NCBI GenBank assembly: GCA_034003985.1
Contig: JAVEXP010000003.1
Location: 122,643-186,642 of the forward strand
DNA length: 64,000 nt
Direction: 5' to 3'
Origin: Patescibacteria group bacterium
Lineage (GTDB): Bacteria > Patescibacteriota > Patescibacteriia > Buchananbacterales > UBA6539
Part shown: piece by piece, positions 20,593-30,922 of the stretch
How positions within the stretch are numbered: position 1 is the first letter of the stretch
Layout of the letters: the number at the start of each line of letters is the position of its first letter
The notes under the pieces: generated by a model
The model's database searches: none
Seen by the model: only the letters and a program-made list of their open reading frames with translations
Told to the model about the DNA's origin: nothing
Made by a program: the position numbers and the translations under genes

Positions 20593-20887
20593 GGCTGTAC
20601 CTCCTAAGTTACTGACTGCAGTTAGAAACACTCCGAGAAATTAAATTTATAAGATTTATTAAAAATTGTCAAAATCCTCAAAAAAATCACACCACTATTT
20701 GGTACGAACTAAAAAGCAAAAATACTGATGAAAAAATATAAAGCGCGTTTGGCCAAACATCCTAATTCAATGCCAGGGGGAAAAAGTTAATTTCCTTTTC
20801 TGCCTACCTAAATCACTTCTGGCTAAAAATAATTTTAGACAGAAATGGAGGAGAGAATTTTAGGTAAGCGGAAAAATAAACCATCTT

Positions 20888-20970
20888 CTTTCCTCAAGCT
20901 CCACCAAGTACCATGCCTGACAAGGTTAGTTGGAAGGAGGAACACGCCGCAAAGCTGGTGCTCCTCCATT
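20888..20970 (+). repeat. structured repeat element, copy 1 of a 5-member family (conserved box TTGGAAGGAGGA at 20930-20941)
   Basis: Shares about 45 nt (CCTCAAGC.CCAC.AAGTACCAT..) with copy 5. Covarying hairpin GGAGGAACAC/GTGCTCCTCC ends 8 nt from the G6 stop. Confidence 0.6.
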
Positions 20971-20975
20971 GTCAC

Positions 20976-21347
20976 TTAATCGGGATCCCAACCCCAAGTC
21001 TTATGGGGCTGGCGACTTCCACACCGGACCTCACCAAGAAAAATCCGGCTTTTGTACTTCCTTGGGAAAAAGACCACCTCCATGTGGTCATAACCTGCTG
21101 AGAATATCACTTTTTCTGGGATTTTTTCTACCCAGACCCATGCCAGCGCTGGGTTTTGACCAGAGAGAGGTCCAATATGGTTCATGAAGGATCGCCATTC
21201 GCGATTAAACCCCTCGACACAGTAGTCGGTCAAAACCTGGGTGGGTTCCGGCTTCTCGAAAACCAAGACAAACCCACTCTTTTCAGCCAAAATGGCTTTC
21301 GCCGCGGCGATTGCCTCATCATAGTATCCACCCTCTTCCTTTATCAT
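20976..21347 (-). CDS. island gene G6, 123-aa hypothetical protein
   Basis: AAGGAGAAG RBS 6 nt upstream of ATG (MIKEEGGYYDE...). Confidence 0.5.
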   Translation of the reverse strand: MIKEEGGYYDEAIAAAKAILAEKSGFVLVFEKPEPTQVLTDYCVEGFNREWRSFMNHIGPLSGQNPALAWVWVEKIPEKVIFSAGYDHMEVVFFPRKYKSRIFLGEVRCGSRQPHKTWGWDPD

Positions 21348-21419
21348 GATCTTCTCCTTTCCAAGATTTCGGCGCTACTAGCAGGTGTTCGTTTCCCGCT
21401 TCGCCAGCTCTATATTAAT

Positions 21420-21499
21420 CTTCCAACTAACCTCATCAAACCCTGAGCCCGATGAGATTAGTTGGAAGGAGGAGCACACAGTACCACTGGCACTCCTTC
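21420..21499 (+). repeat. structured repeat element, copy 2
   Basis: Near-perfect 18-bp palindrome CTTCCAACTAACCTCATC-13 nt-GATGAGATTAGTTGGAAG. Then GGAGGAG box and hairpin GAAGGAG/CTCCTTC ending 18 nt from the G5 stop. Confidence 0.6.
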
Positions 21500-21517
21500 G
21501 AGACGGTCACCTAGATC

Positions 21518-22084
21518 TTAAATCTCTGGCAACCGTCGCCAGCCGGGGGGAAACTCGTCTCGGGTATTTTTGTAGAATACCCAACCCGTCCATGTTCCAT
21601 CTTCACGAAGAAGACGAAAATACGGGAAACTGCTTGCACAGTTAAACCCCCCCTGCATTTGTTTTTTTTGCCAGCCTTTATAGCCAGCTGGCGGCTTGGA
21701 TGGGGCAATTCCCTTAAACCGAACACCCCGGTTCAGACAAGCAGCACTGGTGAAAATCACCAAGCCGCTGTCAATATCCAAGCTGCCGGAACCTGGATCA
21801 ACCAAGACAGCTCCTTGAAAATCAGGATGCTTCTTGATAAACTCCGTTGCTCTTGATCGAGCTACCGAGGATCGGCCGGCAAAAAAAACAACCGGCATCC
21901 TCAACAAATTCAACTGCCCATTTTTTATCGGCAGCTGCTGACGGGAGATGACATCCATCTTTCTCCGGTCATCACCCAAAAGATAGGCCAAGCCGGAAAA
22001 GTTGGAAACACTTTCCACCTTACCGTGCCGGCGAAAAACAACACGGATTTCTTCTGCAGCTAAAAAATCTCTGGTGTCCATCAT
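21518..22084 (-). CDS. island gene G5, 188-aa hypothetical protein (possible Rossmann/PRTase-like VLVDPGSGS motif)
   Basis: AAGGAGA RBS. Start at MMDTRDF... Confidence 0.5.
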   Translation of the reverse strand: MMDTRDFLAAEEIRVVFRRHGKVESVSNFSGLAYLLGDDRRKMDVISRQQLPIKNGQLNLLRMPVVFFAGRSSVARSRATEFIKKHPDFQGAVLVDPGSGSLDIDSGLVIFTSAACLNRGVRFKGIAPSKPPAGYKGWQKKQMQGGFNCASSFPYFRLLREDGTWTGWVFYKNTRDEFPPGWRRLPEI

Positions 22085-22195
22085 CAGGGTCTCCTTTTTT
22101 ATTACTTCTCCCAATGAGTCCACCTGCGCTTTACAGACGAACTCAAGAAGGAGCAGTACCGATCAAACCTCGGTCGGCACTGCTGTCAGGAAACA

Positions 22196-22687
22196 TCACC
22201 ACGGACAAGCCGTGGTTTCCGTTCCCGGAATTATCGGCTCACTGCCCCAAACCAGGGCGTGGCCGTCCCAGAATTCCCTCGCTTTCCTTTCCGCTTCCTG
22301 CGGATTGGCTTGTTGAGAAAAAAATCTGGCATCCCACGGCTCCGGTTCGGGGCGTTTACCAACAAAAGCCGTACGGACTTCATACTTGTCATCGCCGATC
22401 TTCTTCAAAACGACGACAACGCTTGAACACGGCTTGGCTTGGCGGTTTTTAACAAACCGAGTTAGGCCCAAACGCTTTGGTCGCCGGGCATACACGATTT
22501 GGTCGCCGGGCTTGGTGGCGACGCAGACCGTCTGCCCGATTTTCCGGCCAAAATCAATTTCCTCAAGAAAAAACTGCCTGCCCAAGGAATCAACTTTTGC
22601 CAATGCCTCGCCAAGCAGCATCTGCACATCGCCATGCAAATGGCTGTCAGTGCGGTCACAGACCGCTTCGCCCGATTTGAGCATCAT
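22196..22687 (-). CDS. island gene G4, 163-aa hypothetical protein
   Basis: GGAGGG RBS 8 nt upstream of ATGATG (MMLKSGEAV...). Promoter/operator just upstream. Confidence 0.5.
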   Translation of the reverse strand: MMLKSGEAVCDRTDSHLHGDVQMLLGEALAKVDSLGRQFFLEEIDFGRKIGQTVCVATKPGDQIVYARRPKRLGLTRFVKNRQAKPCSSVVVVLKKIGDDKYEVRTAFVGKRPEPEPWDARFFSQQANPQEAERKAREFWDGHALVWGSEPIIPGTETTACPW

Positions 22688-22735
22688 TGCTAAAACCCTC
22701 CATGATTGTAATTTCCTCATTTTCCAGACAAATTT

Positions 22736-22758
22736 TCATTAATGAAAATCATTAATGA
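22736..22758. promoter_or_regulatory. tandem operator: two copies of the perfect 10-bp palindrome TCATTAATGA separated by AAA
   Basis: Lies 50-70 nt upstream of the G4 start, within a minus-strand TTGTCT...TACAAT promoter-like region. Flanked by ACAAATT/AATTTGT inverted repeats. Confidence 0.5.
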
Positions 22759-22794
22759 GAGGAGAGACAATTTGTCCAGAAAATGAAAAAACTG

Positions 22795-22868
22795 ATTCCT
22801 GTTTTGCCAGTCAAAATTTCACGGGCAAAATTGGAAGGAGGAGTCGCAAGCACCACTTGGACTCCTCC
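22795..22868 (+). repeat. structured repeat element, copy 3
   Basis: ATTCCTGTTTTGCC-15 nt-GGCAAAATTGGAA palindrome. Then GGAGGAGTC-14 nt-GACTCCTCC hairpin. Confidence 0.55.
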
Positions 22869-23023
22869 GCATTAACCTGATGGTTTATTTTCTGCCCTCA
22901 CATCTTTGGGCCGATATCACTTTGCAACATTTCAGTTGCCGGATTTGCCTATCGCACCGGTCCCAATCATTCAAGATTGGCGCTTCTGTTAAGGCCTGAG
23001 CTTGCCTTTGGTCACCACCAGTG

Positions 23024-24223
23024 CTACTGCACCGCGATGACCAAGCCAAGAGCGATGTCCTGGACATGCGTCCAGGCAATCGTCGCCCCGGCTCCTGGCT
23101 GAAATGTCGCGCAGGCGGCCGCGCGACCGTGGTAGGCCATGGCCAAACTGGCCATCAGCCAGTTCGGGCCGCGGCCCGACAGAACCACGACCGTTCCCAG
23201 CCCGACTTCGGGCGGGACGATCATGTCGAGGGCCGCGGGCGCCAGGGGGACGCTCGGGTCGAGCGCGAACTCAACCCGCACGCACCGGCGCTCGCCCAGC
23301 GCCGGCAGATCGCTGACGGTCCAGCCGCAGCCGGAACCGTCACCCGACGGGCTGGGGCAGCCCACGGCGATGTAGCCGTCGGGCGAGTTCACCCGCGCCG
23401 AGCGCGGGTGAACCTCGTGCACCAGCGCGGCAACGAGCCACGCCGGTGCGGCGCCGTCGATATCCACCACCTCGGGGAAGGTGGCGGACTGATTATGGAG
23501 CAACCCCGCGACACTCGCGAGGTCTACCCCCTCCCAGCAAAGTTGCTGCACAACCTTGCCGTTAGGGAGCGTCCGCTCCACCGCGTTTTTCCCCAGCGCT
23601 GCGGCCAGCGCCGGGATCGAAATTACATTTCCGTTGAGGAGCATACGCCCCTCCTTTCTTTCGTTGCGGCCGAGCTCGGGCCCAGCCAGACTCAAAATCA
23701 ATTCCGCCACGGCGACGATCGCCGGGCGGTCGTTGACACTCACCTCGCCCCGTTCGAGGTGGTGAACCACTCCTTCCAGCCGGGGCACGGTCTGCTGGAT
23801 GGAGTCGGCGGCGCCTTGATAATCACTGTCCAAGACAGCGACCACCTCAACGCCCAGTTGGGCTAGGAACGCCTCCCACTCGGGGACGGCATTCCGATCA
23901 CCCGCGAGAATGATCCCGTGAGTGATCCCTCCCTCCGAAACGATGCGAGCGTTTTCGGAGGAAGTCCGGCCGCCGATATCCACGAGGACAATCGGCGCCA
24001 GACTGCAGGAGGCGAGAGACTGGCAGTACCAGTCAACTATCTCCTGCGAGAAAGACCCTTTACGACGGTGCTTTTCAGCACCATTGCCGCGCCAGGTCCA
24101 GCTCCCTTCCCCGTCCGGGCAGGCCCGGAACAGGTAACGGGAACTTCTTGGCAGGTTCTCGCATAACCCGCCAAGAAATACGGACTTCCCACTGTGGGGA
24201 GGTCCGGCGACAACGATTTTCAT
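23024..24223 (-). CDS. island gene G3, very GC-rich P-loop NTPase (Walker A GPPHSGKS, DIGG Walker B/G3-like) with uncharacterised C-terminal half
   Basis: AAAGGAGG RBS 6 nt upstream of ATG (MKIVVAGPPHSGKSVF...). About 400 codons. Plus-strand ORFs over it are Arg-rich antisense shadows. Confidence 0.6.
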   Translation of the reverse strand: MKIVVAGPPHSGKSVFLGGLCENLPRSSRYLFRACPDGEGSWTWRGNGAEKHRRKGSFSQEIVDWYCQSLASCSLAPIVLVDIGGRTSSENARIVSEGGITHGIILAGDRNAVPEWEAFLAQLGVEVVAVLDSDYQGAADSIQQTVPRLEGVVHHLERGEVSVNDRPAIVAVAELILSLAGPELGRNERKEGRMLLNGNVISIPALAAALGKNAVERTLPNGKVVQQLCWEGVDLASVAGLLHNQSATFPEVVDIDGAAPAWLVAALVHEVHPRSARVNSPDGYIAVGCPSPSGDGSGCGWTVSDLPALGERRCVRVEFALDPSVPLAPAALDMIVPPEVGLGTVVVLSGRGPNWLMASLAMAYHGRAAACATFQPGAGATIAWTHVQDIALGLVIAVQ

Positions 24224-24296
24224 CGCTGCCTCCTTTCTCCCCGATTGGGGAGTTTTTATTTTTATGGAAACCAGCCGCCTCACATCAGCGTCCGGG

Positions 24297-24380
24297 AATT
24301 TCCCTCAGGACTTACCAACAGACAAACATATTGCTGATAAATCCAGTTGGGAGGAGGAACTACTGAACCACAGCCGTTCC
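24297..24380 (+). repeat. structured repeat element, copy 4 (diverged)
   Basis: TTCCCTCAGG...ACCAAC...GTTGGGAGGAGGAAC. Weaker hairpin GGAAC/GTTCC. Confidence 0.4.
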
Positions 24381-24623
24381 CCCAAATAACCAATGGCACC
24401 ACGCGGCGGTGCCACTATCACGATCGATTAACCCCCATCGATCAAAGGAGTATTCAGATTTACTCTCGAAAGAGAGAAGGCCTAACACACAAGGCCTTTT
24501 GCCAATGCTTTTACGCGGATGGCTGCTCTAATTACTAGAGCTTTACCGCAACTCGGATAATTTAATACCCGAGGCTATGATGGTACAAACCGCAAATACT
24601 TACACACGGTTTGTACCCCCCCA

Positions 24624-24833
24624 TCAAGGTCCCTCGATCAGTCGGCGAACCGACCGCTCAAGGGATCTTTTGATCCCCCACGAGATTTGGGCCCCCAGCA
24701 GGGAGCCCGCCTGGCAGGATACCTCAATATCGATTGGACCATCGAGGTATTCAATGGCGGCCAAAGCCGCCGGCAAGTCCTTCTTGTCGACGGCGGCTGT
24801 AAGCCGCCGAAATCCTTCTAACAATTCATCCAT
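24624..24833 (-). CDS. island gene G2, 69-aa hypothetical protein
   Basis: AAGGAGGA RBS 6 nt upstream of ATG. Followed 10 nt after its stop by a perfect 11-bp hairpin. Confidence 0.45.
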   Translation of the reverse strand: MDELLEGFRRLTAAVDKKDLPAALAAIEYLDGPIDIEVSCQAGSLLGAQISWGIKRSLERSVRRLIEGP

Positions 24834-24926
24834 GGCGTCCTCCTTTCATAGAGTTTCGGCTCGCCACGAGCCGCCCCCTAGGGGAAATTTCTTCTTTTCC
24901 CGCGCCGCACATTGGCTCGAGATTTT

Positions 24927-25001
24927 TTCCCTCAAGCCCCACAAGTACCATACTTGTGAAGCTAATTGGAAGGAGAAGCCGACAAAGCAGTCGGCTTCTC
25001 C
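24927..25001 (+). repeat. structured repeat element, copy 5
   Basis: TTCCCTCAAGCCCCACAAGTACCAT. Then CACAAGTA/TACTTGTG hairpin, TTGGAAGGAG box, and 12-bp hairpin GGAGAAGCCGAC/GTCGGCTTCTCC ending 8 nt from the G1 stop. Confidence 0.6.
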
Positions 25002-25009
25002 GTTATTAA

Positions 25010-25273
25010 TTAGTCGTACTTAACAACTGTTTCCATCTCTTCCGTATTTCTCGACTGACAATTCGGGCACATCGGCTTAAGTATTTTATGCGTCAGTTCC
25101 CCGCCGCAGTCGTCGCATTTGCCAACGGCATTTTCATCAAAGCCATCTCGGGGCAAAGCTTTTATTTTATCGCAATCAAGGCAATGATAATTATAGAATA
25201 AGGCACCATCGCCCAAATTGGACCTAAATTCATTTTGGCAATCATTGCACTTGCACATCACAATAATACCCAT
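25010..25273 (-). CDS. island gene G1, double zinc-ribbon small protein (four CxxC pairs)
   Basis: CKCNDC...CLDC...CDDC...CPNC in 87 aa. Confidence 0.55.
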   Translation of the reverse strand: MGIIVMCKCNDCQNEFRSNLGDGALFYNYHCLDCDKIKALPRDGFDENAVGKCDDCGGELTHKILKPMCPNCQSRNTEEMETVVKYD

Positions 25274-26345
25274 ACCTTAAATCATTATTAATTTCTTGTT
25301 TTTTGCTTTCTTAAAATTGTCAAAGTACTTCCTATTTTAGCTCCTCACCAGATGCTCCTAATACCTGGAGTAATTTCATTTCTCTTAAAATTATTTTTTC
25401 TAACTAGGATTGTTCTTTCCGCAAACCGGTGGTTAATCGGCCTACGGAAAACGTCAATCCCAACTAGGTTTGACGCTTGGCCCGGTCCAAAAAATTCAGA
25501 ATCAATACCTCACCCTTTAAGCGAAGCCTGATTAATCAAAAATTCTTAAACCGCTAGCGCTTGCTCATCGCCAAATTTTTGCCAAGTTGAGCATAGTTTG
25601 AAAGTCTATGCTGAAGACTAATTCTCTCCTCAAACATCAGACTTCAATTTAGACTATAATGAACATTTTTTCTCTCTTATTGAGAGAATGCTGCAGAAAA
25701 AGAAATTCTTGGCTTAGCTTTAGGCCTTTTTTTTATTTAGACAATGTTAATTTATGCCAGCCGCGCTTATTTTTTTTACCGCCGACCGCCTGGGCGCTAA
25801 AAACGCTTTTGGCAGTGTGGCATCTCTCCTCTTTCTGCAATATCTTCCCAACAAAAAATCCGCTTTTCGCGGAGAGTTACTTTGCTCATATGACATATGC
25901 TATAAGCTAACAAGTACTCTCTCCACTTAGTACTTCCTATATAATGTAATGTTCGGCTAGTGATTTTAACCACTGTCTCCGACCACCGTCACGGCCGGAT
26001 CACACTGATTACAATCTTTTGGGCTTAAAGAAGATTTACCAAGGTATATCTTTCTCCTCAATTAGCAGACCTTGATTAACCTTTACCTTTTTACTGCCCT
26101 TTTGATTAACCCCTCTTGCTGGTTGTCATTCTCCTCAAATGGCTTCCAGACTTGTTGGGGATGTGTTTTATAGAACCTTTTGTCAGCTTTTAAAACTTCT
26201 TGGTTTTTTAGCTTAACGAGTCATTATAGCATATCTTAAAAATACTGTCAAGTATTTGTGACAATAATTATTCATTAAATTGTATTTTAGCTAAAATAAG
26301 CTAGCTTAGTTTGGTAAATTTAGCTAAATATTTGTCATAAATTCT

Positions 26346-26378
26346 TGACAAAAAATTATAAAAGGTATATAATAATAA
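26346..26378 (+). promoter_or_regulatory. sigma70-like promoter for the TrmB-like regulator
   Basis: TTGACA-17-TATAAT. Confidence 0.5.
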
Positions 26379-26408
26379 TAGATAAATAAACAATTACCAA
26401 CTAATCAT

Positions 26409-27236
26409 ATGTACGAGCAACACCTCAAACAAGCCGGTTTGTCTAAAGAACAGGCGGAAATATATGAGCTGTTAATTAAAAAAGGCCCACAAAAAGCCGG
26501 CAAAATAAGCCAAAAAACCACGCTGAAGCGAGGCTTAGTCTACAAAATTCTTGAACAACTAGTGGATTTTGGCTTGGTTGAGAAAATAGAAAAGGAGGGT
26601 CAAATAGCAACTTTTATTCCGGCCCATCCCCTAAAGCTGAGAGAGCTGGCTCAAAAGCAGGAACAGCAGGCCAAAGACGCCCAGCTGGCCTTGGCTGGAG
26701 TTTTGCCTTCTATTATCTCTGACTTTAATTTGGTTTCAGGCAAGCCGGGCGTCCGATTTTTCGAGGGTGCAAGCGGCTTAAAACAAATTTATGACGATAT
26801 ATTGGCGACTCTGAAAAACAGCGAAACTTTTTATTTAATCCGGGCCGCTTATGAGCCAGTGTATAAAGAAAAAATGATCCCAATTATTGACGATTTTATT
26901 AAAAAAAGAGTGAAAAAAAACATTAATGTCGTCGCCTTAACTCCCGCCGACGAGCTGGCTGAAGAAAAAACAACGAATACCCAGGCGGACCAGGCAATTC
27001 TGTTTGACCGGACCTTGGTTGATAAAAAAAAATACTCCCAGCCGGTGGAAATTGACATATATGGTGATAAAATTGCCATGCTTTCTTTCGGCCAGGAATT
27101 AATCGGCACAATAATAGAAAGTCCCCAGATCTCTGGGGCTTTAAAAGAAATTTTTATTTTAGCTCAAAAAGGCGCCAAACTTAAGCCGCCGCTGGAAGAT
27201 CAAGGGCTTTATGATGGGATCCGTAATGTTCCTTAA
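26409..27236 (+). CDS. TrmB-family transcriptional regulator
   Basis: N-terminal wHTH (LSKEQAEIYELLIKKGPQKAGKISQKT...) with C-terminal TrmB-type effector domain. Confidence 0.7.
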   Translation: MYEQHLKQAGLSKEQAEIYELLIKKGPQKAGKISQKTTLKRGLVYKILEQLVDFGLVEKIEKEGQIATFIPAHPLKLRELAQKQEQQAKDAQLALAGVLPSIISDFNLVSGKPGVRFFEGASGLKQIYDDILATLKNSETFYLIRAAYEPVYKEKMIPIIDDFIKKRVKKNINVVALTPADELAEEKTTNTQADQAILFDRTLVDKKKYSQPVEIDIYGDKIAMLSFGQELIGTIIESPQISGALKEIFILAQKGAKLKPPLEDQGLYDGIRNVP

Positions 27237-29571
27237 TTTTTCGTCGGATAATTCTAACAATTTCAGCAAAAACCTCGGCATCTCCCAATCCTTTACTAAA
27301 TGATTCTCGATTATGATAATATTGGGGATTTTTATTTTTTTGCTCCGCTTCTGTGCTTAAAGCATTACCAATTGAAATAACCCGGCCAACGGTATCCTCA
27401 ACCGAACCGATCTCTAAAGATATTTCCCCTTCTTTTATGGTCGGATCATTGGCAACAATTTTTCCATCTTGTCTTTGTTTGCCTTCACGATCAATTCTTA
27501 AACTTAAAGCCCTTTTCCGGCTATCCGAATCAATATCTAAATCAATTGGTCTATCCGAAAATAAAAAGTTGACTCTGGCTTCACTGTCAAATTCTCTTTG
27601 CTGGTTTCTGTCTGGATAAGCCACACCATATTCGCGAAGCTGAATGGTTAAATAAGAGACTTGGCCATTGTGTTCAACTGAAAAATTGTAGCTTTCAGGC
27701 ACACCCTCTTCCACATTTATTAACTCAAATTGATAACTTTCATTTTCATCCTCTGTTTCTACCAAAGCAATAATTTGATCCAAGGCCAATCGATATTGTT
27801 TCAAAGACTGAATTATTTCTTGACTACTGCCGCTAGCAAGCTGCTTAGTTCTTTCATAAAATCTTGCTTTTGCCTTGCCTTTGCCGGCAATCGCCGCGGC
27901 GGCATATAAAATATCCTTGGCCCGGCGCATTATAGCTTCGGCACATTGAGCCGGAAAATCCTCCCTAAGAGAATCAAATAATTCGCTTGAAGTAAACTCT
28001 TCAGTACTATTTATTGTTTCTGCCAGATGTTTAGCGCTTTTAATTAAACTATTATATTCAGCAAAAATTTCCGCTGCTTCTTCTTCCGGTAGCTTTGTAC
28101 CCATTTCAATAATTATATTTCCAACATTATCACTATATTCACAGGCTAAAAAAGTTCTTAAGCCGTCTAAACCAAATTTTTTGGAAAAAGCAATAACTTG
28201 ATTATAATTTTCTTGATTAATGAAAGCATAAGTGGTTAAAGCGTTTTGCTCTCTCAAAGAAAGATTATGAATACCCAAACCAGCCTGTTCAGTTAGATCA
28301 CGAGATAACTCCTGGAGTTTATTGTATTCCCGAACAGCGTTGAAATCCGCCACCCTTTGGGCATAATCTTCGGGAGTTTCATCCTGCCGCCTTGGACTTA
28401 ATTCAGTAGCGCTGAAAGGAACGGGTTTTGGCGCGTCAGCATCTCTTTTTCCAAAAAATATATCACCTGATTTGGGCTTACGCCCCCGCTTTTTCTCAAA
28501 TTCGGTGATTCTTTTTTGAATCTGTTCAGGATTAGCCGGATGAAAAACATGATTCACTTTTCTCACACCTTTTGTTTCATCAACAATACCATACAAATCT
28601 TCGGCCAACTTAACAAATAATTTTCCCTGAAATTCACTGCCCAAAATATATCTTGGACTAAAAGATTGAATCTGGCCGGCTTCATCTTGCCACCTTGTTT
28701 GAACAGAAACGCCGCCAACCCTGTCTTTAATTTCTCTTTCGCTGCGGATATCTTCCGAAGTTTTGCTCCCTTCACATTGATTAAAATCTTTGGCGGTTAA
28801 CATTCCGCTCTTCTTTAAGTTGGCATATTCCGGCAAATTAATTGCTCTCTTTGGCGCGGCCCAGATGTCAATTTGCCCGCCTGATTTGGTCCGGCCGCGC
28901 GAAGCGACTTTAATGCCACTTACTGCACCACTACCACCAGACCGAATGCCTTTATTAGTTATCCAGTCAGAATTCAAAGGGATAAAATCTTTTGATTCAG
29001 ATGATTTTCTAACCATTAAATGACCGTTTTCGTCCCGATAACCAGCGCCATAATTCGGATGAAATATCCTTAAAGCCAATTCCGCTTCTTCGCCGGAATA
29101 ACCAAATTGCTCCTGATAAAACTGATTGATACTTGACCACCTACCTGGAACTTCCGAAATAGATAAATAAAAATCGGCGTCTTGAATCGCCGTCTTGTCA
29201 AAAGCCTTGTCTTTGGACGGAATATAAAAAAGCGGCTTAGGTTCAATATCGGCTTCACCGCTTTGTTTTCTTTCCCAGTCGGAGCGGGAATAAACCGACT
29301 TGTCTTGAAAATAACTTAATAATTCCTTTTGAAAACTGCTACGACCGGCTTTGCGCGCCGATTCGATATCCGGCAAAGCTCTGATAGCATCAGTTTGTTT
29401 AGAAATTTTATCTAAATCACAAATTACTTCGCCATCTGAGCCAAATTCAAAAAATTTTTCTTTTTCCAAATAATTCGCCAACTTTTCGCACAAAGCCTCA
29501 TCACCATCTTCTCCAGTATCTTCTTGATCGTATTTTTCCAGATTTAAACCATTTTCAAATCCTTGACGCAT
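27181..29571 (-). CDS. large (796 aa) acidic hypothetical protein, no recognised domain
   Basis: Long uninterrupted ORF. 3' end overlaps the convergent TrmB gene by 56 nt. Confidence 0.5.
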   Translation of the reverse strand: MRQGFENGLNLEKYDQEDTGEDGDEALCEKLANYLEKEKFFEFGSDGEVICDLDKISKQTDAIRALPDIESARKAGRSSFQKELLSYFQDKSVYSRSDWERKQSGEADIEPKPLFYIPSKDKAFDKTAIQDADFYLSISEVPGRWSSINQFYQEQFGYSGEEAELALRIFHPNYGAGYRDENGHLMVRKSSESKDFIPLNSDWITNKGIRSGGSGAVSGIKVASRGRTKSGGQIDIWAAPKRAINLPEYANLKKSGMLTAKDFNQCEGSKTSEDIRSEREIKDRVGGVSVQTRWQDEAGQIQSFSPRYILGSEFQGKLFVKLAEDLYGIVDETKGVRKVNHVFHPANPEQIQKRITEFEKKRGRKPKSGDIFFGKRDADAPKPVPFSATELSPRRQDETPEDYAQRVADFNAVREYNKLQELSRDLTEQAGLGIHNLSLREQNALTTYAFINQENYNQVIAFSKKFGLDGLRTFLACEYSDNVGNIIIEMGTKLPEEEAAEIFAEYNSLIKSAKHLAETINSTEEFTSSELFDSLREDFPAQCAEAIMRRAKDILYAAAAIAGKGKAKARFYERTKQLASGSSQEIIQSLKQYRLALDQIIALVETEDENESYQFELINVEEGVPESYNFSVEHNGQVSYLTIQLREYGVAYPDRNQQREFDSEARVNFLFSDRPIDLDIDSDSRKRALSLRIDREGKQRQDGKIVANDPTIKEGEISLEIGSVEDTVGRVISIGNALSTEAEQKNKNPQYYHNRESFSKGLGDAEVFAEIVRIIRRKIKEHYGSHHKALDLPAAA

Positions 29572-29693: not shown

Positions 29694-30608
29694 ATGAATA
29701 AATTAATCAACCAATTTTTAGAATACCTGGAAATCGAAAAAGGCCGAAGCCTGAACACGGTTCAGAATTATCATTTTTATCTCAACCGTTTTGCCGAGTG
29801 GTCAAAAATAAAAAAGCCTGAGCAGATAAATCAAGATTTGGTCAGGAGCTATCGTATTTGGCTCAACCGTCAAACTGACAACCGAGGTGAAGTCCTGGAA
29901 AAATCAACCCAAAATTATCACCTGATTGCCCTAAGATCATTTTTAAAATATTTGTCCAAGATTGATGTCAACTCAATGGCACCGGAAAAAATTGAACTGG
30001 CCAAAATGCCGCAACGCCAAGTTGATTTTTTGGAAGGCCCTGACTTGGAAAGATTATTAGAAGCACCGCTGAAAAGCGCGGAACCAGAAATCATTAAGCT
30101 ACGCGACAAGGCGATTTTGGAATTATTATTTTCAACCGGCTTGCGGGTCTCGGAACTTTCCAAACTCAACCAAGACCAAATCAATTTAGCCAAAGAAGAA
30201 TTTACCGTCCGTGGCAAAGGCAGCAAATTACGGGTGGTTTTTTTGTCTAATCAGGCCAAACATTGGCTAAAGCAATATTTGGAAAAAAGAAAGGATCTAT
30301 CCCCCAGCCTATTTGTCCGTCACGACCGGGCCAAGGGTAAAAAAGAAGCAGAAAATCTAACACCCCGAAGCATTCAGCGGCTGATTAAAAAGTATGCCAA
30401 AGAAGCTGGGATTGCCAAAGACATCACACCCCACACCATGCGCCACAGTTTTGCAACAGATCTGCTGATTAATGGCGCCGACATTCGTTCCGTCCAATCA
30501 ATGCTGGGACATTCCTCAATTACCACCACCCAAATTTACACTCACTTAACAGATCACCAGCTGCGTGAAGTTTATAAAACTTTCCACCAACGCCAAAGAC
30601 GCAAGTAA
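29694..30608 (+). CDS. tyrosine recombinase, XerC/XerD family
   Basis: R..HxxR..Y catalytic signature: HTMRHSFATDLL...LGHSSITTTQIYTHL. Confidence 0.8.
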   Translation: MNKLINQFLEYLEIEKGRSLNTVQNYHFYLNRFAEWSKIKKPEQINQDLVRSYRIWLNRQTDNRGEVLEKSTQNYHLIALRSFLKYLSKIDVNSMAPEKIELAKMPQRQVDFLEGPDLERLLEAPLKSAEPEIIKLRDKAILELLFSTGLRVSELSKLNQDQINLAKEEFTVRGKGSKLRVVFLSNQAKHWLKQYLEKRKDLSPSLFVRHDRAKGKKEAENLTPRSIQRLIKKYAKEAGIAKDITPHTMRHSFATDLLINGADIRSVQSMLGHSSITTTQIYTHLTDHQLREVYKTFHQRQRRK

Positions 30609-30656
30609 TAATTGACTTTTAACAAAATTTCGGCTATAATCATTTTGTTTTATTAC

Positions 30657-30731
30657 GCCCCTGTAGTTCAACGGATAGAACGAGGGCCTTCTAAGCCTTA
30701 GATCAAGGTTCGATTCCTTGCGGGGGCACCA
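30657..30731 (+). tRNA. tRNA-Arg (anticodon TCT)
   Basis: Cloverleaf folds. Anticodon loop CTTCTAA. Encoded CCA. Confidence 0.8.
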
Positions 30732-30755
30732 GAAAAGTTTAACCCCTGATTATAA

Positions 30756-30830
30756 GCCCCCTTAGTTCAACGGATAGAATGTGGGCTTCCGGAGCCTAAG
30801 ATGTAGGTTCGATTCCTACAGGGGGCACCA
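30756..30830 (+). tRNA. tRNA-Arg (anticodon CCG)
   Basis: Anticodon loop TTCCGGA. T-arm GTAGG-TTCGATT-CCTAC. CCA encoded. Confidence 0.75.
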
Positions 30831-30846
30831 GTAGAAAATTAAATAT

Positions 30847-30922
30847 GGTGGCCTTGGTGAAACGGTTATCACGCGAGTTTGTGGCACTCGCATTACGGGT
30901 TCGATTCCCGTAGGCCACCCCA
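30847..30922 (+). tRNA. tRNA-His (anticodon GTG) with G-1
   Basis: Anticodon loop TTGTGGC. Extra 5' G pairs with discriminator C. CCA encoded. Confidence 0.8.

What the first reader, a model, noticed from the sequence alone, without database searches (positions are those of the whole stretch)
20888..25001. Five-member family of intergenic structured elements sharing the box TTGGAAGGAGGA, with a covarying hairpin and two competing folds
The five copies lie at 20888-20970, 21420-21499, 22795-22868, 24297-24380 and 24927-25001, all in one orientation.

Copies 1 and 5 share a conserved leader of about 45 nt (TTCCCTCAAGC-CCAC-AAGTACCAT). All copies carry the box (A/G)TTGGAAGGAG(G/A)A.

Immediately 3' of the box a hairpin always begins GGAG(G/A)A and closes with TCCTCC-type sequence. 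Its distal stem and loop differ between copies with compensatory changes: GGAGGAACAC/GTGCTCCTCC, GAAGGAG/CTCCTTC, GGAGGAGTC/GACTCCTCC, and GGAGAAGCCGAC/GTCGGCTTCTCC. That is classic covariation of a functional structure.

The same box is also the 3' arm of an upstream imperfect palindrome. Copy 2 is near-perfect: CTTCCAACTAACCTCATC-13 nt-GATGAGATTAGTTGGAAG. So the GGAG segment can pair either upstream or downstream. These are mutually exclusive structures, as in attenuators or riboswitch expression platforms.

In gene orientation each element starts 8-18 nt after the stop of G1, G5 and G6. Candidate roles:

- attC-like recombination sites of an integron-like cassette array. The organisation R''-spacer-L''-loop-L'-spacer-R' is visible in copy 2, with TTCCAAC/GTTGGAA resembling RYYYAAC/GTTRRRY imperfectly.

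- REP/BIME-like palindromes mobilised by a Y1 transposase.

- I-shaped terminators plus a conserved cis-regulatory RNA switch.
Basis: seen in the sequence. Interest (0 to 1): 0.9.

Follow-up and report, generated by a model that had tools for sequence, protein, structure and literature searches.

The report
Double-hairpin joints of a Patescibacteria gene-cassette array
The five repeats are real, strongly covarying two-hairpin modules that mark every junction of a variable array of foreign, mostly unknown genes in an ultra-small (Patescibacteria) bacterium; they look like the joints of a gene-cassette system that is neither an integron nor any catalogued RNA family.

Summary
Five co-oriented copies lie at 20887-20977, 21419-21509, 22794-22878, 24298-24393 and 24925-25011, and nowhere else in the 64 kb.

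On the gene-sense (minus) strand each copy is two abutting hairpins:
- hpA: GGAGRA...UYCUCC.
- hpB: UUCC/AAYU/variable stem/UGA/GGAA.

Across 43 distinct copies from about ten genomes, 95% of cells pair and 23 of 24 pairs show compensatory changes. G-U pairs outnumber A-C pairs eightfold, so the sense strand is the folded one. The "two competing folds" claim fails, because the hairpins coexist.

The elements are not attC sites, REPs, canonical terminators or any Rfam family. They occur almost only in arrays downstream of a conserved platform: a large unknown protein, a TrmB-like regulator, two perfect divergent promoters and a ~370-nt structured leader with terminator and antiterminator. Cassette ORFs have foreign GC content, and 0 of 20 tested have a Pfam hit.

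hpA and hpB reassort independently. 26 of 30 homology breakpoints fall at the joint.

Best reading: RNA punctuation of a polycistronic cassette transcript, with the invariant joint doubling as the place where cassettes are exchanged. The mechanism is inferred, not shown. I found no prior description.

The parts
20887..20977 (-). Element E1, the last of the array: hpA 20936-20967, hpB 20890-20935. It starts 8 nt after the stop of ORF 20976-21347.
   Evidence: CM hit of 69.3 bits; sequence and coordinates.
21419..21509 (-). Element E2: hpA 21468-21499, hpB 21421-21467. Its hpB is a near-perfect palindrome CTTCCAAC...GTTGGAAG.
   Evidence: CM hit of 63.5 bits; DNA fold z = -6.4.
22794..22878 (-). 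Element E3: hpA 22837-22868, hpB 22796-22836.
   Evidence: CM hit of 61.8 bits; fold z = -4.9.
24298..24393 (-). Element E4: hpA 24353-24383, hpB 24300-24352. Its box variant is CTCC|TCCCAAC.
   Evidence: CM hit of 73 bits.
24925..25011 (-). Element E5, the first one on the platform side: hpA 24972-25001, of the GGAGAAGCCG...CGGCTTCTCC type that all leader-proximal copies in other genomes share; hpB 24927-24971.
   Evidence: CM hit of 75.8 bits; comparison of first elements.
20778..20893 (-). Terminal long hairpin after the last element, with an unpaired CUCUCCUCC bulge. An AACTCTCTCCTC-type motif at the same place follows eight elements: six that are the last detected in their stretch, one solitary copy (L071) and one internal copy (L032:570).
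   Evidence: Inverted repeat I1; fold; flanks of terminal elements.
20976..21347 (-). Cassette ORF, 123 aa, no family match.
21518..22720 (-). Two-gene cassette: 174 aa (22196-22720) and 188/201 aa (21518-22084/22123). No family match. The 174-aa protein is 52% identical to the first array gene of L062.
23024..24223 (-). Cassette ORF AAA-Csx3 (CRISPR-associated ring-nuclease family). GC is 65% and GC3 is 77%, in a ~40% GC genome.
   Evidence: Pfam, NCBIfam and PADLOC; composition. Homologues sit in other such loci: downstream of a TrmB-like gene in L094 and after a similar promoter and leader in L093.
24624..24833 (-). Cassette ORF, 69 aa, no family match.
25010..25273 (-). Zn-ribbon protein, 87 aa. 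It is the first gene after the leader and is part of the conserved platform in at least two genomes (76% identical in L064).
25845..26251 (-). Array promoter (TTGACA-17-TATAAT, 26251-26223) and a ~370-nt conserved structured leader RNA. The leader ends in an intrinsic terminator (stem 25859-25873 plus U6) with an alternative antiterminator pairing.
   Evidence: Promoter and terminator scan; 70-78% nucleotide identity between genomes; 66 predicted pairs, 25 with compensatory changes; no Rfam hit.
26409..27236 (+). TrmB-like HTH regulator, transcribed divergently from the array from a second perfect promoter (26345-26373).
   Evidence: Pfam. Homologues lie next to the arrays in L010, L049, L050, L059, L064, L066, L068, L069, L075, L079 and L094.
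27181..29571 (-). 796-aa protein of unknown fold, convergent with the TrmB-like gene and co-oriented with the array. It belongs to a rare family confined to these loci.

Best explanation
Each element is the joint between two units of a gene-cassette array that is transcribed from one regulated promoter.

On the sense strand, hairpin A (GGAGRA-stem-loop-UYCUCC, loop often GUGGU) closes the upstream unit. Hairpin B opens the downstream unit. It consists of a UUCC/GGAA basal stem, a conserved AAYU/UGA internal loop and a freely covarying 12-bp or longer stem.

Shown:
- the structure and its sense-strand bias;
- the restriction to arrays behind a conserved platform (g796-family protein, TrmB-like regulator, leader RNA with terminator and antiterminator);
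- the foreign composition and ORFan nature of the cargo;
- the independent reassortment of hpA and hpB, with homology breakpoints at the box.

Inferred:
- In the polycistronic RNA the pair punctuates the transcript. A terminator-derived 3' hairpin protects or ends the upstream message, and a 5' hairpin begins the downstream one. Cleavage or a protein bound at the joint probably insulates unrelated ORFs from each other.
- At the DNA level the conserved joint, together with other short conserved blocks of the intergenic module, is where cassettes are swapped between arrays. The route could be homology-facilitated or site-specific recombination.
For: Structure:
- The consensus of 13 sequences has 24 pairs, 14 of them compensatory.
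- In 43 distinct copies, 95.2% of cells pair and 23 of 24 pairs change on both sides. No shuffle in 500 reached this, and slid controls pair at 48-59%.

Strand:
- G-U pairs make up 12.9% of paired cells against 1.7% for A-C.
- Sense RNA folds at -35.3 kcal/mol on average against -27.7 for antisense, and is the more stable in 41 of 44 copies, p = 3e-8.

Context:
- Arrays of 3-7 copies were seen in seven further contigs or loci.
- A TrmB-like gene, the conserved leader or a g796 homologue sits upstream wherever enough flank is available, while the host flanks differ between genomes.
- The first element sits at the end of the leader, or directly after the Zn-ribbon gene that follows it in the window. 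Its hpA is orthologous across genomes.

Cargo:
- Window cassette ORFs are 49-65% GC against 38-42% for the platform.
- 0 of 20 array ORFs from seven arrays have a Pfam hit.
- Defence-like cargo includes AAA-Csx3, Prok-E2/ThiF and MoxR.

Modularity:
- Similarity of hpA and hpB inner sequences is uncorrelated (r = 0.00). Of 33 pairs with hpA at least 80% identical, only 3 also share hpB.
- 26 of 30 in-register alignments at 85% identity or more begin or end within -6 to +20 nt of the joint.
- L068 element 1551 combines the hpA and upstream flank of element 3409 with the hpB and downstream flank of element 2533.
- The 77-aa cassette carries the same hpB in L064 and in CAZHUO but has different upstream partners, and 1.85 kb of extra cassettes lie between them in CAZHUO.

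RNA-level hints:
- In many copies the conserved module continues into three more hairpins and a conserved ribosome-binding context, GAAACTCnnGAAAGGAGA-ATG.
- In the sister clade L079 the equivalent GGAGGA...CCTCC hairpins carry U-tracts, like intrinsic terminators.
- Other clades have different double hairpins at the same position.
Against: - There are no expression data. Processing, termination or protein binding at the joint is pure inference.
- G-T wobble is also tolerated in folded single-stranded DNA, so the strand bias does not exclude a DNA-level role for the sense strand.
- Recurrent hpA and hpB types could partly reflect sequence constraint rather than recombination.
- hpA similarity does not always extend into the upstream ORF. 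L032:570 and L032:2427 have identical hpA but unrelated upstream flanks.
- One duplicated pair breaks after the third hairpin rather than at the joint (L043:7254 and L050:115). There is therefore no single strict crossover point.
- No strain-level cassette presence/absence polymorphism within one species was recovered.
- One weak copy (L063, 36.8 bits) follows a gene downstream of rpoBC and lies upstream of the g796 homologue. It is outside a recognised array.
Confidence: 0.55

Rival explanations
1. A DNA-level recombination site of a new, integrase-independent or Xer-dependent cassette-capture system. The sense strand folds as single-stranded DNA during replication or after uptake. A recombinase cuts at the invariant box between the two hairpins, so a circular cassette (hpB-ORF-hpA) inserts at the platform's hpA|hpB joint. 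The recombinase could be the g796-family protein, the host Xer or an unknown enzyme.
For: - Breakpoints cluster at the box (26 of 30).
- hpA and hpB assort independently.
- The platform-type hpA is conserved on the first element, and a conserved terminal module follows the last hpB. This fits an ancestral empty site.
- The cargo is foreign in GC and ORFan, as in integrons.
- An element pair only 91 nt apart looks like an empty cassette (L068 3232 and 3409).
- A rare large protein is always adjacent.
Against: - No recognisable recombinase domain appears in the g796 family or the TrmB-like protein.
- Xer is near the array only in syntenic relatives, not in L059, L064, L079 or L094.
- The breakpoints are not unique. 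Some fall at the 5' base of hpA, at the end of hpB and after hpC.
- Conservation runs on into 5'-UTR hairpins and the ribosome-binding context, which points to RNA-level selection.
- No circular cassettes or within-species polymorphisms were seen.
Confidence: 0.25
2. A self-cleaving ribozyme, or a dedicated endoribonuclease site such as a minihelix substrate for RNase P, RNase Z or RNase III. It would cut the polycistronic RNA exactly between hpA and hpB. This is a more specific form of the RNA-punctuation idea.
For: - Invariant nucleotides are concentrated at the joint, in the AAYU/UGA internal loop and in the hpA loop (GUGGU), while the stems covary freely.
- The two helices abut and could stack coaxially.
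- The structure is specific to the sense strand.
Against: - No match to any ribozyme or other Rfam family, even at E <= 10.
- No tertiary-contact covariation was identified.
- Sister clades keep the double hairpin but not the conserved nucleotides.
Confidence: 0.12
3. Ordinary transcription terminators (hairpins lacking a U-tract) plus the 5' leader hairpin of the next gene. They would have multiplied by tandem duplication of one ancestral gene unit, with no role in gene mobility.
For: - hpA resembles the hairpin plus U-run terminators of the L079 clade.
- Three of the five window elements begin 8-18 nt after a stop codon.
Against: - hpA is followed by UUCCAAY, not a U-tract. The terminator scan finds none of the five on the sense strand.
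- Neighbouring ORFs are unrelated and differ by up to 25 percentage points in GC, which argues against duplication.
- The same cassettes occur in different arrays with different neighbours.
Confidence: 0.08
4. Genuine integron attC sites, that is, a cluster of attC sites lacking an integrase (CALIN).
For: - A co-oriented array with the element 3' of each ORF.
- Copy 2 shows TTCCAAC...GTTGGAA, resembling R''/R'.
Against: - No IntI: the nearest tyrosine recombinase scores 136.8 against a 265-bit cutoff on the integron-integrase model, and is Xer-like.
- GTT is absent from the 3' arm in four of the five window copies and in the family consensus, which reads YUGAGGAA.
- There are two hairpins rather than one.
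- Folding is favoured on the top (sense) strand, whereas attC recombines as the bottom strand.
Confidence: 0.02
5. REP/BIME- or MITE-like selfish palindromes spread by a Y1 (RAYT/IS200) transposase.
For: They are palindromic, repeated and intergenic.
Against: - All five copies lie in 4.1 kb, in one orientation, with none elsewhere in the 64 kb.
- In other genomes they are likewise confined to TrmB-linked arrays.
- None was found in viral contigs.
- No target-site duplications or terminal inverted repeats were seen.
Confidence: 0.02

Closest known systems
Integron cassette arrays and attC sites (including CALINs)
   Same: - A platform with one promoter, followed by a co-oriented array of promoterless genes.
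- The genes are compositionally foreign and mostly ORFan.
- A structured, single-strand-folding repeat sits at every junction, and junction halves are shared between neighbouring cassettes.
- Defence genes are among the cargo.
   Different: - No integron integrase.
- A double hairpin instead of one imperfect hairpin with R and L boxes and extrahelical bases.
- The AAC/GTT cores do not pair.
- The structure is favoured on the ORF-sense strand, with abundant G-U pairs.
- Conservation extends into the 5' UTR and ribosome-binding context.
- The platform has a TrmB-like regulator, a large unknown protein and an attenuator-like leader RNA.
REP/BIME and other intercistronic stem-loops that stabilise upstream mRNA segments
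   Same: Intergenic hairpins directly 3' of ORFs inside operons. A role as a barrier to 3' exonucleases is plausible.
   Different: - Not dispersed through the genome.
- A fixed two-hairpin architecture with an invariant joint and a conserved internal loop.
- Tied to one locus type.
- No RAYT association was seen.
Phage HK022 put RNAs (two adjacent stem-loops that act in cis on RNA polymerase for processive antitermination)
   Same: Two adjacent hairpins of ~70-90 nt in the nascent sense transcript of a long operon that must be read through foreign sequence. This comparison rests on my own knowledge, not on a tool result.
   Different: - No sequence or Rfam relationship.
- put sites occur once or twice per operon, not after every gene.
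- Nothing here shows an interaction with RNA polymerase.
Intrinsic (Rho-independent) terminators
   Same: hpA is a 12-14-bp G+C-rich hairpin just after stop codons. The homologous hairpins in the L079 clade carry U-tracts.
   Different: In this family the U-tract is replaced by UUCC, which forms the base of hpB. No terminator-like site was called on the sense strand.

Membership tests
Integron attC site | An integron integrase (IntI, with its specific extra domain) adjacent to the array. | tested here: not met
   The only tyrosine recombinase within reach (29694-30608) scores 255, 251 and 247 bits as XerD, XerC and XerA. It scores 136.8 against the 265-bit cutoff of TIGR02249. It is not conserved next to arrays in other genomes.
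Integron attC site | Inverse core R'' RYYYAAC pairing with core R' GTTRRRY. | tested here: not met
   The 5' side TTCCAAY is conserved, but the 3' side is YTGAGGAA in the family consensus. Only copy 2 has GTTGGAA. In the consensus fold AAY lies in an unpaired internal loop.
Integron attC site | A single imperfect hairpin that folds and recombines as the bottom strand (antisense to the cassette ORFs). | tested here: not met
   There are two abutting hairpins. G-U pairs (12.9%) far exceed A-C pairs (1.7%) on the sense strand, and the sense fold is more stable in 41 of 44 copies.
Integron attC site | Located 3' of ORFs in co-oriented cassette arrays. | tested here: met
Integron attC site | A significant hit with the IntegronFinder attC covariance model. 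| not testable with these tools
   That model is not in Rfam or in the tool set.
REP/BIME (RAYT-mobilised palindromes) | Many copies dispersed through the genome, in both orientations. | tested here: not met
   Five copies lie in 4.1 kb, all on one strand, and none elsewhere in the 64 kb. The same holds in 8-23-kb loci of other genomes.
REP/BIME (RAYT-mobilised palindromes) | An associated Y1/RAYT transposase gene. | not tested
   Only 20 ORFs of the window were scanned. None was a Y1 transposase, and whole genomes were not available.
Intrinsic terminator | A G+C-rich hairpin followed directly by a U-tract on the transcribed strand. | tested here: not met
   hpA is followed by UUCCAAY. The scan reports no sense-strand site at any of the five hpA hairpins. 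Related hairpins in L079 do have U-tracts.
Riboswitch or attenuator expression platform | Two mutually exclusive pairings that share a segment. | tested here: not met
   hpA and hpB share no bases and coexist in the minimum-energy RNA folds and the consensus fold. Such an alternative does exist in the upstream leader.
Any Rfam 15 family | A match at the gathering threshold, or a suggestive E-value. | tested here: not met
   Only tRNAs pass. The best sub-threshold hits are miRNA-precursor hairpins with E > 0.06.

The most novel reading that the evidence does not exclude
Patescibacteria carry a previously undescribed gene-cassette platform. It consists of a TrmB-regulated promoter, an attenuator-type leader RNA, a lineage-specific large protein, and an array in which unrelated, horizontally acquired ORFs are joined by double-hairpin modules. 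Cassettes are captured and shuffled at the invariant hpA|hpB joint without an integron integrase. The same joints then punctuate the common transcript.
Probability: 0.35. Interest if true: 0.9.

Novelty: categorically new. Interest (0 to 1): 0.8.

Why it matters
Integrons are the only well-understood natural system that stockpiles promoterless foreign genes behind one promoter. A second, unrelated solution in the Candidate Phyla Radiation would have several consequences.
- It would show that cassette platforms evolved more than once.
- It would give a handle on how these tiny, episymbiotic bacteria acquire accessory and defence genes.
- It would supply several uncatalogued RNA structures to study: the junction double hairpin, a ~370-nt attenuator-like leader, and 5'-UTR modules.
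- It would point to a new protein family of unknown fold.

Even on the conservative reading, that the elements act only as RNA punctuation, this is an uncatalogued, strongly covarying RNA motif. It could also serve as a natural cistron insulator.

Tried and rejected
- Rfam at gathering and at permissive thresholds, on the window and on eight related loci: only tRNAs.
- Viral contigs scanned for the element: nothing.
- The genome-collection pattern scan gave 58 stretches. Most were chance or coding matches, including a conserved protein motif in Firmicutes genes, and only eight loci held true relatives.
- K-turn reading of the hpB internal loop: rejected, because the positions after AAYU form Watson-Crick pairs that covary.
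- Pairing of the upstream GGUU motif with the AAYU loop: considered and left open. GGTT is present in only about half of the copies.
- Looked for cassette presence/absence polymorphism among contigs that carry identical TrmB proteins (P0016, P0044). The contigs either matched or broke inside the leader, so they were uninformative. L090 and L091 were identical.
- Literature searches on integron/attC/Patescibacteria, TrmB/Patescibacteria, gene cassettes/hairpin/intergenic, and CPR/integron-like found no description of this locus.
- Correlations of hpA with the upstream flank and of hpB with the downstream flank were weak overall (r = 0.16 and 0.12). The claim that hpA belongs to the upstream cassette rests on specific cases, not on a global statistic.

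Full report
**Observation**

The box TTGGAAGGAGRA occurs five times on the + strand between 20930 and 24977: four exact matches and one with a single mismatch. No shuffle in 100 reached the total of six matches. All annotatable genes of the region lie on the minus strand, so I analysed the elements in gene orientation.

In that orientation each copy is two directly abutting hairpins:
- hpA: GGAG(G/A)A, stem, loop, U(C/U)CUCC.
- hpB: UUCC, then AAYU, a variable stem-loop of 12 bp or more, (Y)UGA, then GGAA, followed by an A-rich stretch.

A covariance model built from 13 copies finds exactly five hits in the 64-kb window: 20887-20977, 21419-21509, 22794-22878, 24298-24393 and 24925-25011. They score 62-76 bits.

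**Is the structure real?**

RNAalifold on 13 sequences predicts 24 pairs, 14 with compensatory changes. On 45 model-aligned copies (43 distinct) from about ten genomes:
- 95.2% of cells pair.
- 23 of 24 pairs show double changes.
- No shuffle in 500 reached the observed values.
- Sliding the 3' partners drops pairing to 48-59%.

This alignment is fitted to the model, so it leans towards the structure. The independent MAFFT alignment gives the same picture.

G-U pairs make up 12.9% of paired cells and A-C pairs 1.7%. Sense RNA folds are more stable than antisense folds in 41 of 44 copies, at -35.3 against -27.7 kcal/mol, p = 3e-8. The structure is therefore selected on the gene-sense strand.

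The two hairpins do not compete. They share no bases and both form in the minimum-energy RNA folds and the consensus fold.

**Relatives and context**

A pattern scan of one genome per species gave 58 stretches. Most were chance or coding matches, but eight loci held true relatives. A stricter metagenome scan gave 14 more loci. Viral contigs gave none.

The copies form co-oriented arrays of 3-7, for example:
- CAZHUO010000017 (L010 plus L032);
- JBAZMW010000004 (L043 plus L050);
- L049, L059, L066, L075 and L069;
- L068 plus L072.

tblastn with window proteins showed that two window genes recur immediately upstream of these arrays in the same arrangement: the TrmB-like gene (26409-27236, +) and the 796-aa ORF (27181-29571, -). 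The host genes on either side differ between genomes:
- S15/PNPase and Xer/tRNAs in the window;
- ParAB/RelA and TopA in L059;
- asparaginase and IleRS in L064;
- rpoBC in L063.

Between the TrmB-like gene and the first cassette lies 0.9-1.5 kb without ORFs. This stretch is 70-78% identical at the nucleotide level between genomes whose flanking proteins are only 40-50% identical. It contains:
- two perfect divergent TTGACA-17-TATAAT promoters;
- a ~370-nt RNA with 66 predicted pairs, 25 of them compensatory in just five sequences;
- an intrinsic terminator whose 5' arm CUCUCC can instead pair with a conserved upstream GGAGAG.

That arrangement is an attenuator or riboswitch-like expression platform in front of the array. 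It has no Rfam match.

**Anatomy of the array**

The first element sits at the end of the leader, or directly after the Zn-ribbon gene that follows it in the window. The Zn-ribbon gene is also the first gene after the leader in L064, but no element follows it there. The hpA of this first element is orthologous across genomes, of type GGAGAAGCCGG...CCGGCUUCUCC. This holds for window E5, L010:4970, L059:15337, L050:1061 and L075:1321.

After the last element comes a long hairpin that displays an unpaired CUCUCCUC(C) motif. In the window it spans 20778-20893. The same motif follows terminal or solitary elements in L059, L066, L072, L043, L031 and L071, and one internal element (L032:570).

In many cassettes the conserved module continues 3' of hpB. 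It runs through three further hairpins and a conserved translation-initiation context, (G/C)AAACUCnnGAAAGGAGA-N5-7-AUG. Other cassettes go from hpB to the start codon within 20-35 nt.

Between consecutive elements lie one to three ORFs, or none in one case (L068 3232 and 3409, 91 nt apart).

Window cassette ORFs are 49-65% GC. The AAA-Csx3 ORF reaches 65%, with GC3 of 77%. The platform is 38-42% GC.

None of 20 array ORFs from seven arrays matches Pfam. Recognisable cargo is defence-like:
- AAA-Csx3 in the window, L093 and L094;
- Prok-E2 plus a ThiF-type E1 in L064;
- MoxR in L062.

**Modularity**

The variable inner parts of hpA and hpB are uncorrelated across copies (r = 0.00). Of 33 pairs with hpA at least 80% identical, only 3 share hpB. 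Of 19 pairs sharing hpB, only 3 share hpA.

Among local alignments at 85% identity or more between element neighbourhoods, 26 of 30 in-register ones begin or end within -6 to +20 nt of the joint. The rest end at the 3' base of hpB or after the next hairpin.

Concrete cases:
- L068 element 1551 equals the upstream flank plus hpA of element 3409, joined to hpB plus the downstream flank of element 2533.
- One hpA (GGAGGAGUAGAAUUGGUAAUUCUAACUCCUCC) is joined to three different hpBs in L075:2519, L075:3383 and L066:4499.
- A 77-aa gene keeps its own long-form hpB and 5' UTR at 83-86% identity in L064 and in CAZHUO. In L064 that hpB is joined to the hpA of a 252-aa gene. In CAZHUO it is preceded by a U-run without hpA, and 1.85 kb of extra cassettes lie between the two genes.
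- A 285-aa cassette (71% identical) is the last unit in both L066 and JBAZMW but has different upstream neighbours.

The element is therefore a composite, and the invariant box is a preferred exchange point. The breakpoints are not unique, and hpA does not always co-vary with the upstream ORF. The data fit mosaic recombination at short conserved blocks at least as well as a single site-specific crossover.

**Other clades**

Loci with homologous TrmB-like and g796-like genes and leaders, but no hit to my model, still carry hairpins at cassette junctions:
- L090 has a 64-nt exact repeat made of two abutting hairpins.
- L093 has GAAGGGCAGA...UCUGCCCUUC|UCCUC...GAGGA after its AAA-Csx3 gene.
- L079 has GGAGGAAGGAG...CUCCUUCCUCC hairpins followed by U-runs, which look like ordinary intrinsic terminators.

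This suggests that hpA derives from, or still acts as, a 3'-end hairpin at the RNA level.

**Comparison with known systems**

- attC/integron: the array logic is shared, but the defining features fail. No IntI is present. The nearby recombinase is Xer-like, scores 136.8 against a 265-bit cutoff on the integron-integrase model, and is not conserved beside arrays. The AAC/GTT cores pair only in copy 2. There are two hairpins, and the strand bias is the opposite of attC. The IntegronFinder attC model could not be run.
- REP/BIME: fails on distribution and orientation.
- Intrinsic terminator: fails for lack of a U-tract.
- Rfam: no family matches.
- Literature: four full-text searches found no description.

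**Conclusion**

The family is real and functional, and it belongs to a conserved locus type specific to Patescibacteria.

I consider the following most likely (0.55). The double hairpin works in the sense transcript as punctuation between unrelated cistrons, through processing, end protection or insulation. Its invariant joint is also the place where cassettes are exchanged.

A purely DNA-level, integron-analogous recombination site is the main rival (0.25). It overlaps with the best explanation and could also be true.

No expression or biochemical data were available, so every mechanistic step beyond structure, distribution and mosaicism is inference.

Noticed in passing
window 25845-26251 (minus strand): A ~370-nt conserved, covarying leader RNA lies behind a perfect TTGACA-17-TATAAT promoter. 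It ends in an intrinsic terminator (25859-25873 plus U6) whose 5' arm can instead pair with an upstream conserved GGAGAG. This looks like an uncatalogued attenuator or riboswitch candidate that controls entry into the array.
   Followed up: partly
window 26280-26400: Two perfect divergent sigma-70 promoters flank a TTGTCA-N7-TGACAA palindrome and TTTAGC(T) repeats, which are probably operators of the TrmB-like protein. The same TAGCT-type short repeats recur in the leader just before its terminator, and inside the enlarged loops of long-form hpB copies (L010:4970, L032:570, L066:6165, L071:461).
   Followed up: no
window 27181-29571 (minus strand): A 796-aa protein with no family match and no structural neighbour. 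It belongs to a very rare family (8 homologues, some with a C-terminal GNAT domain) that is always convergent with the TrmB-like gene of these loci.
   Followed up: partly
window 20778-20893; also L059, L066, L072, L043, L031: A long hairpin after the last element presents an unpaired CUCUCCUC(C). This is complementary to the GAGGAGAG motifs of the leader, so it may reflect long-range RNA pairing or inverted boundary repeats of the array.
   Followed up: no
window 23024-24223: The AAA-Csx3 gene is 65% GC (GC3 77%) in a ~40% GC genome, and its untranslated flanks are only 49-54% GC against 65% for the ORF. No CRISPR array or cas operon was noticed in the ORFs examined, so this looks like a stand-alone ring-nuclease cassette.
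   Followed up: partly
window 29694-30919: A Xer-type tyrosine recombinase is followed by three tRNA genes immediately beyond the 796-aa gene. The same recombinase lies near TrmB arrays in the syntenic loci L062 and L090, but not elsewhere. A genomic-island boundary cannot be excluded.
   Followed up: partly
L090 8467-8530 and 9188-9251; L093 3380-3470; L079 (array region): Sister clades use different junction elements at the same position: other double hairpins in L090 and L093, and hairpins with U-runs in L079. The architecture is therefore older than this sequence family.
   Followed up: partly
L010/L032, L031/L063, L036/L064: MAGs labelled 'uncultured Gammaproteobacteria' (CAZHUO, CAZEKG, CAZCCC) carry these Patescibacteria-type loci. 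Their leaders are 72-78% identical at the nucleotide level to the window's, so these contigs are probably misbinned.
   Followed up: no
L063 9767-9854: A weak copy of the element (36.8 bits) follows a 180-aa gene downstream of rpoBC and lies just upstream of the g796 homologue. It is outside a recognisable array.
   Followed up: no
window 24394-24623: A 230-nt stretch without an ORF lies between the 69-aa gene and element E4. It contains three G+C-rich hairpins, one of them terminator-like at 24391-24417. It may be a degenerate cassette or a small RNA.
   Followed up: no
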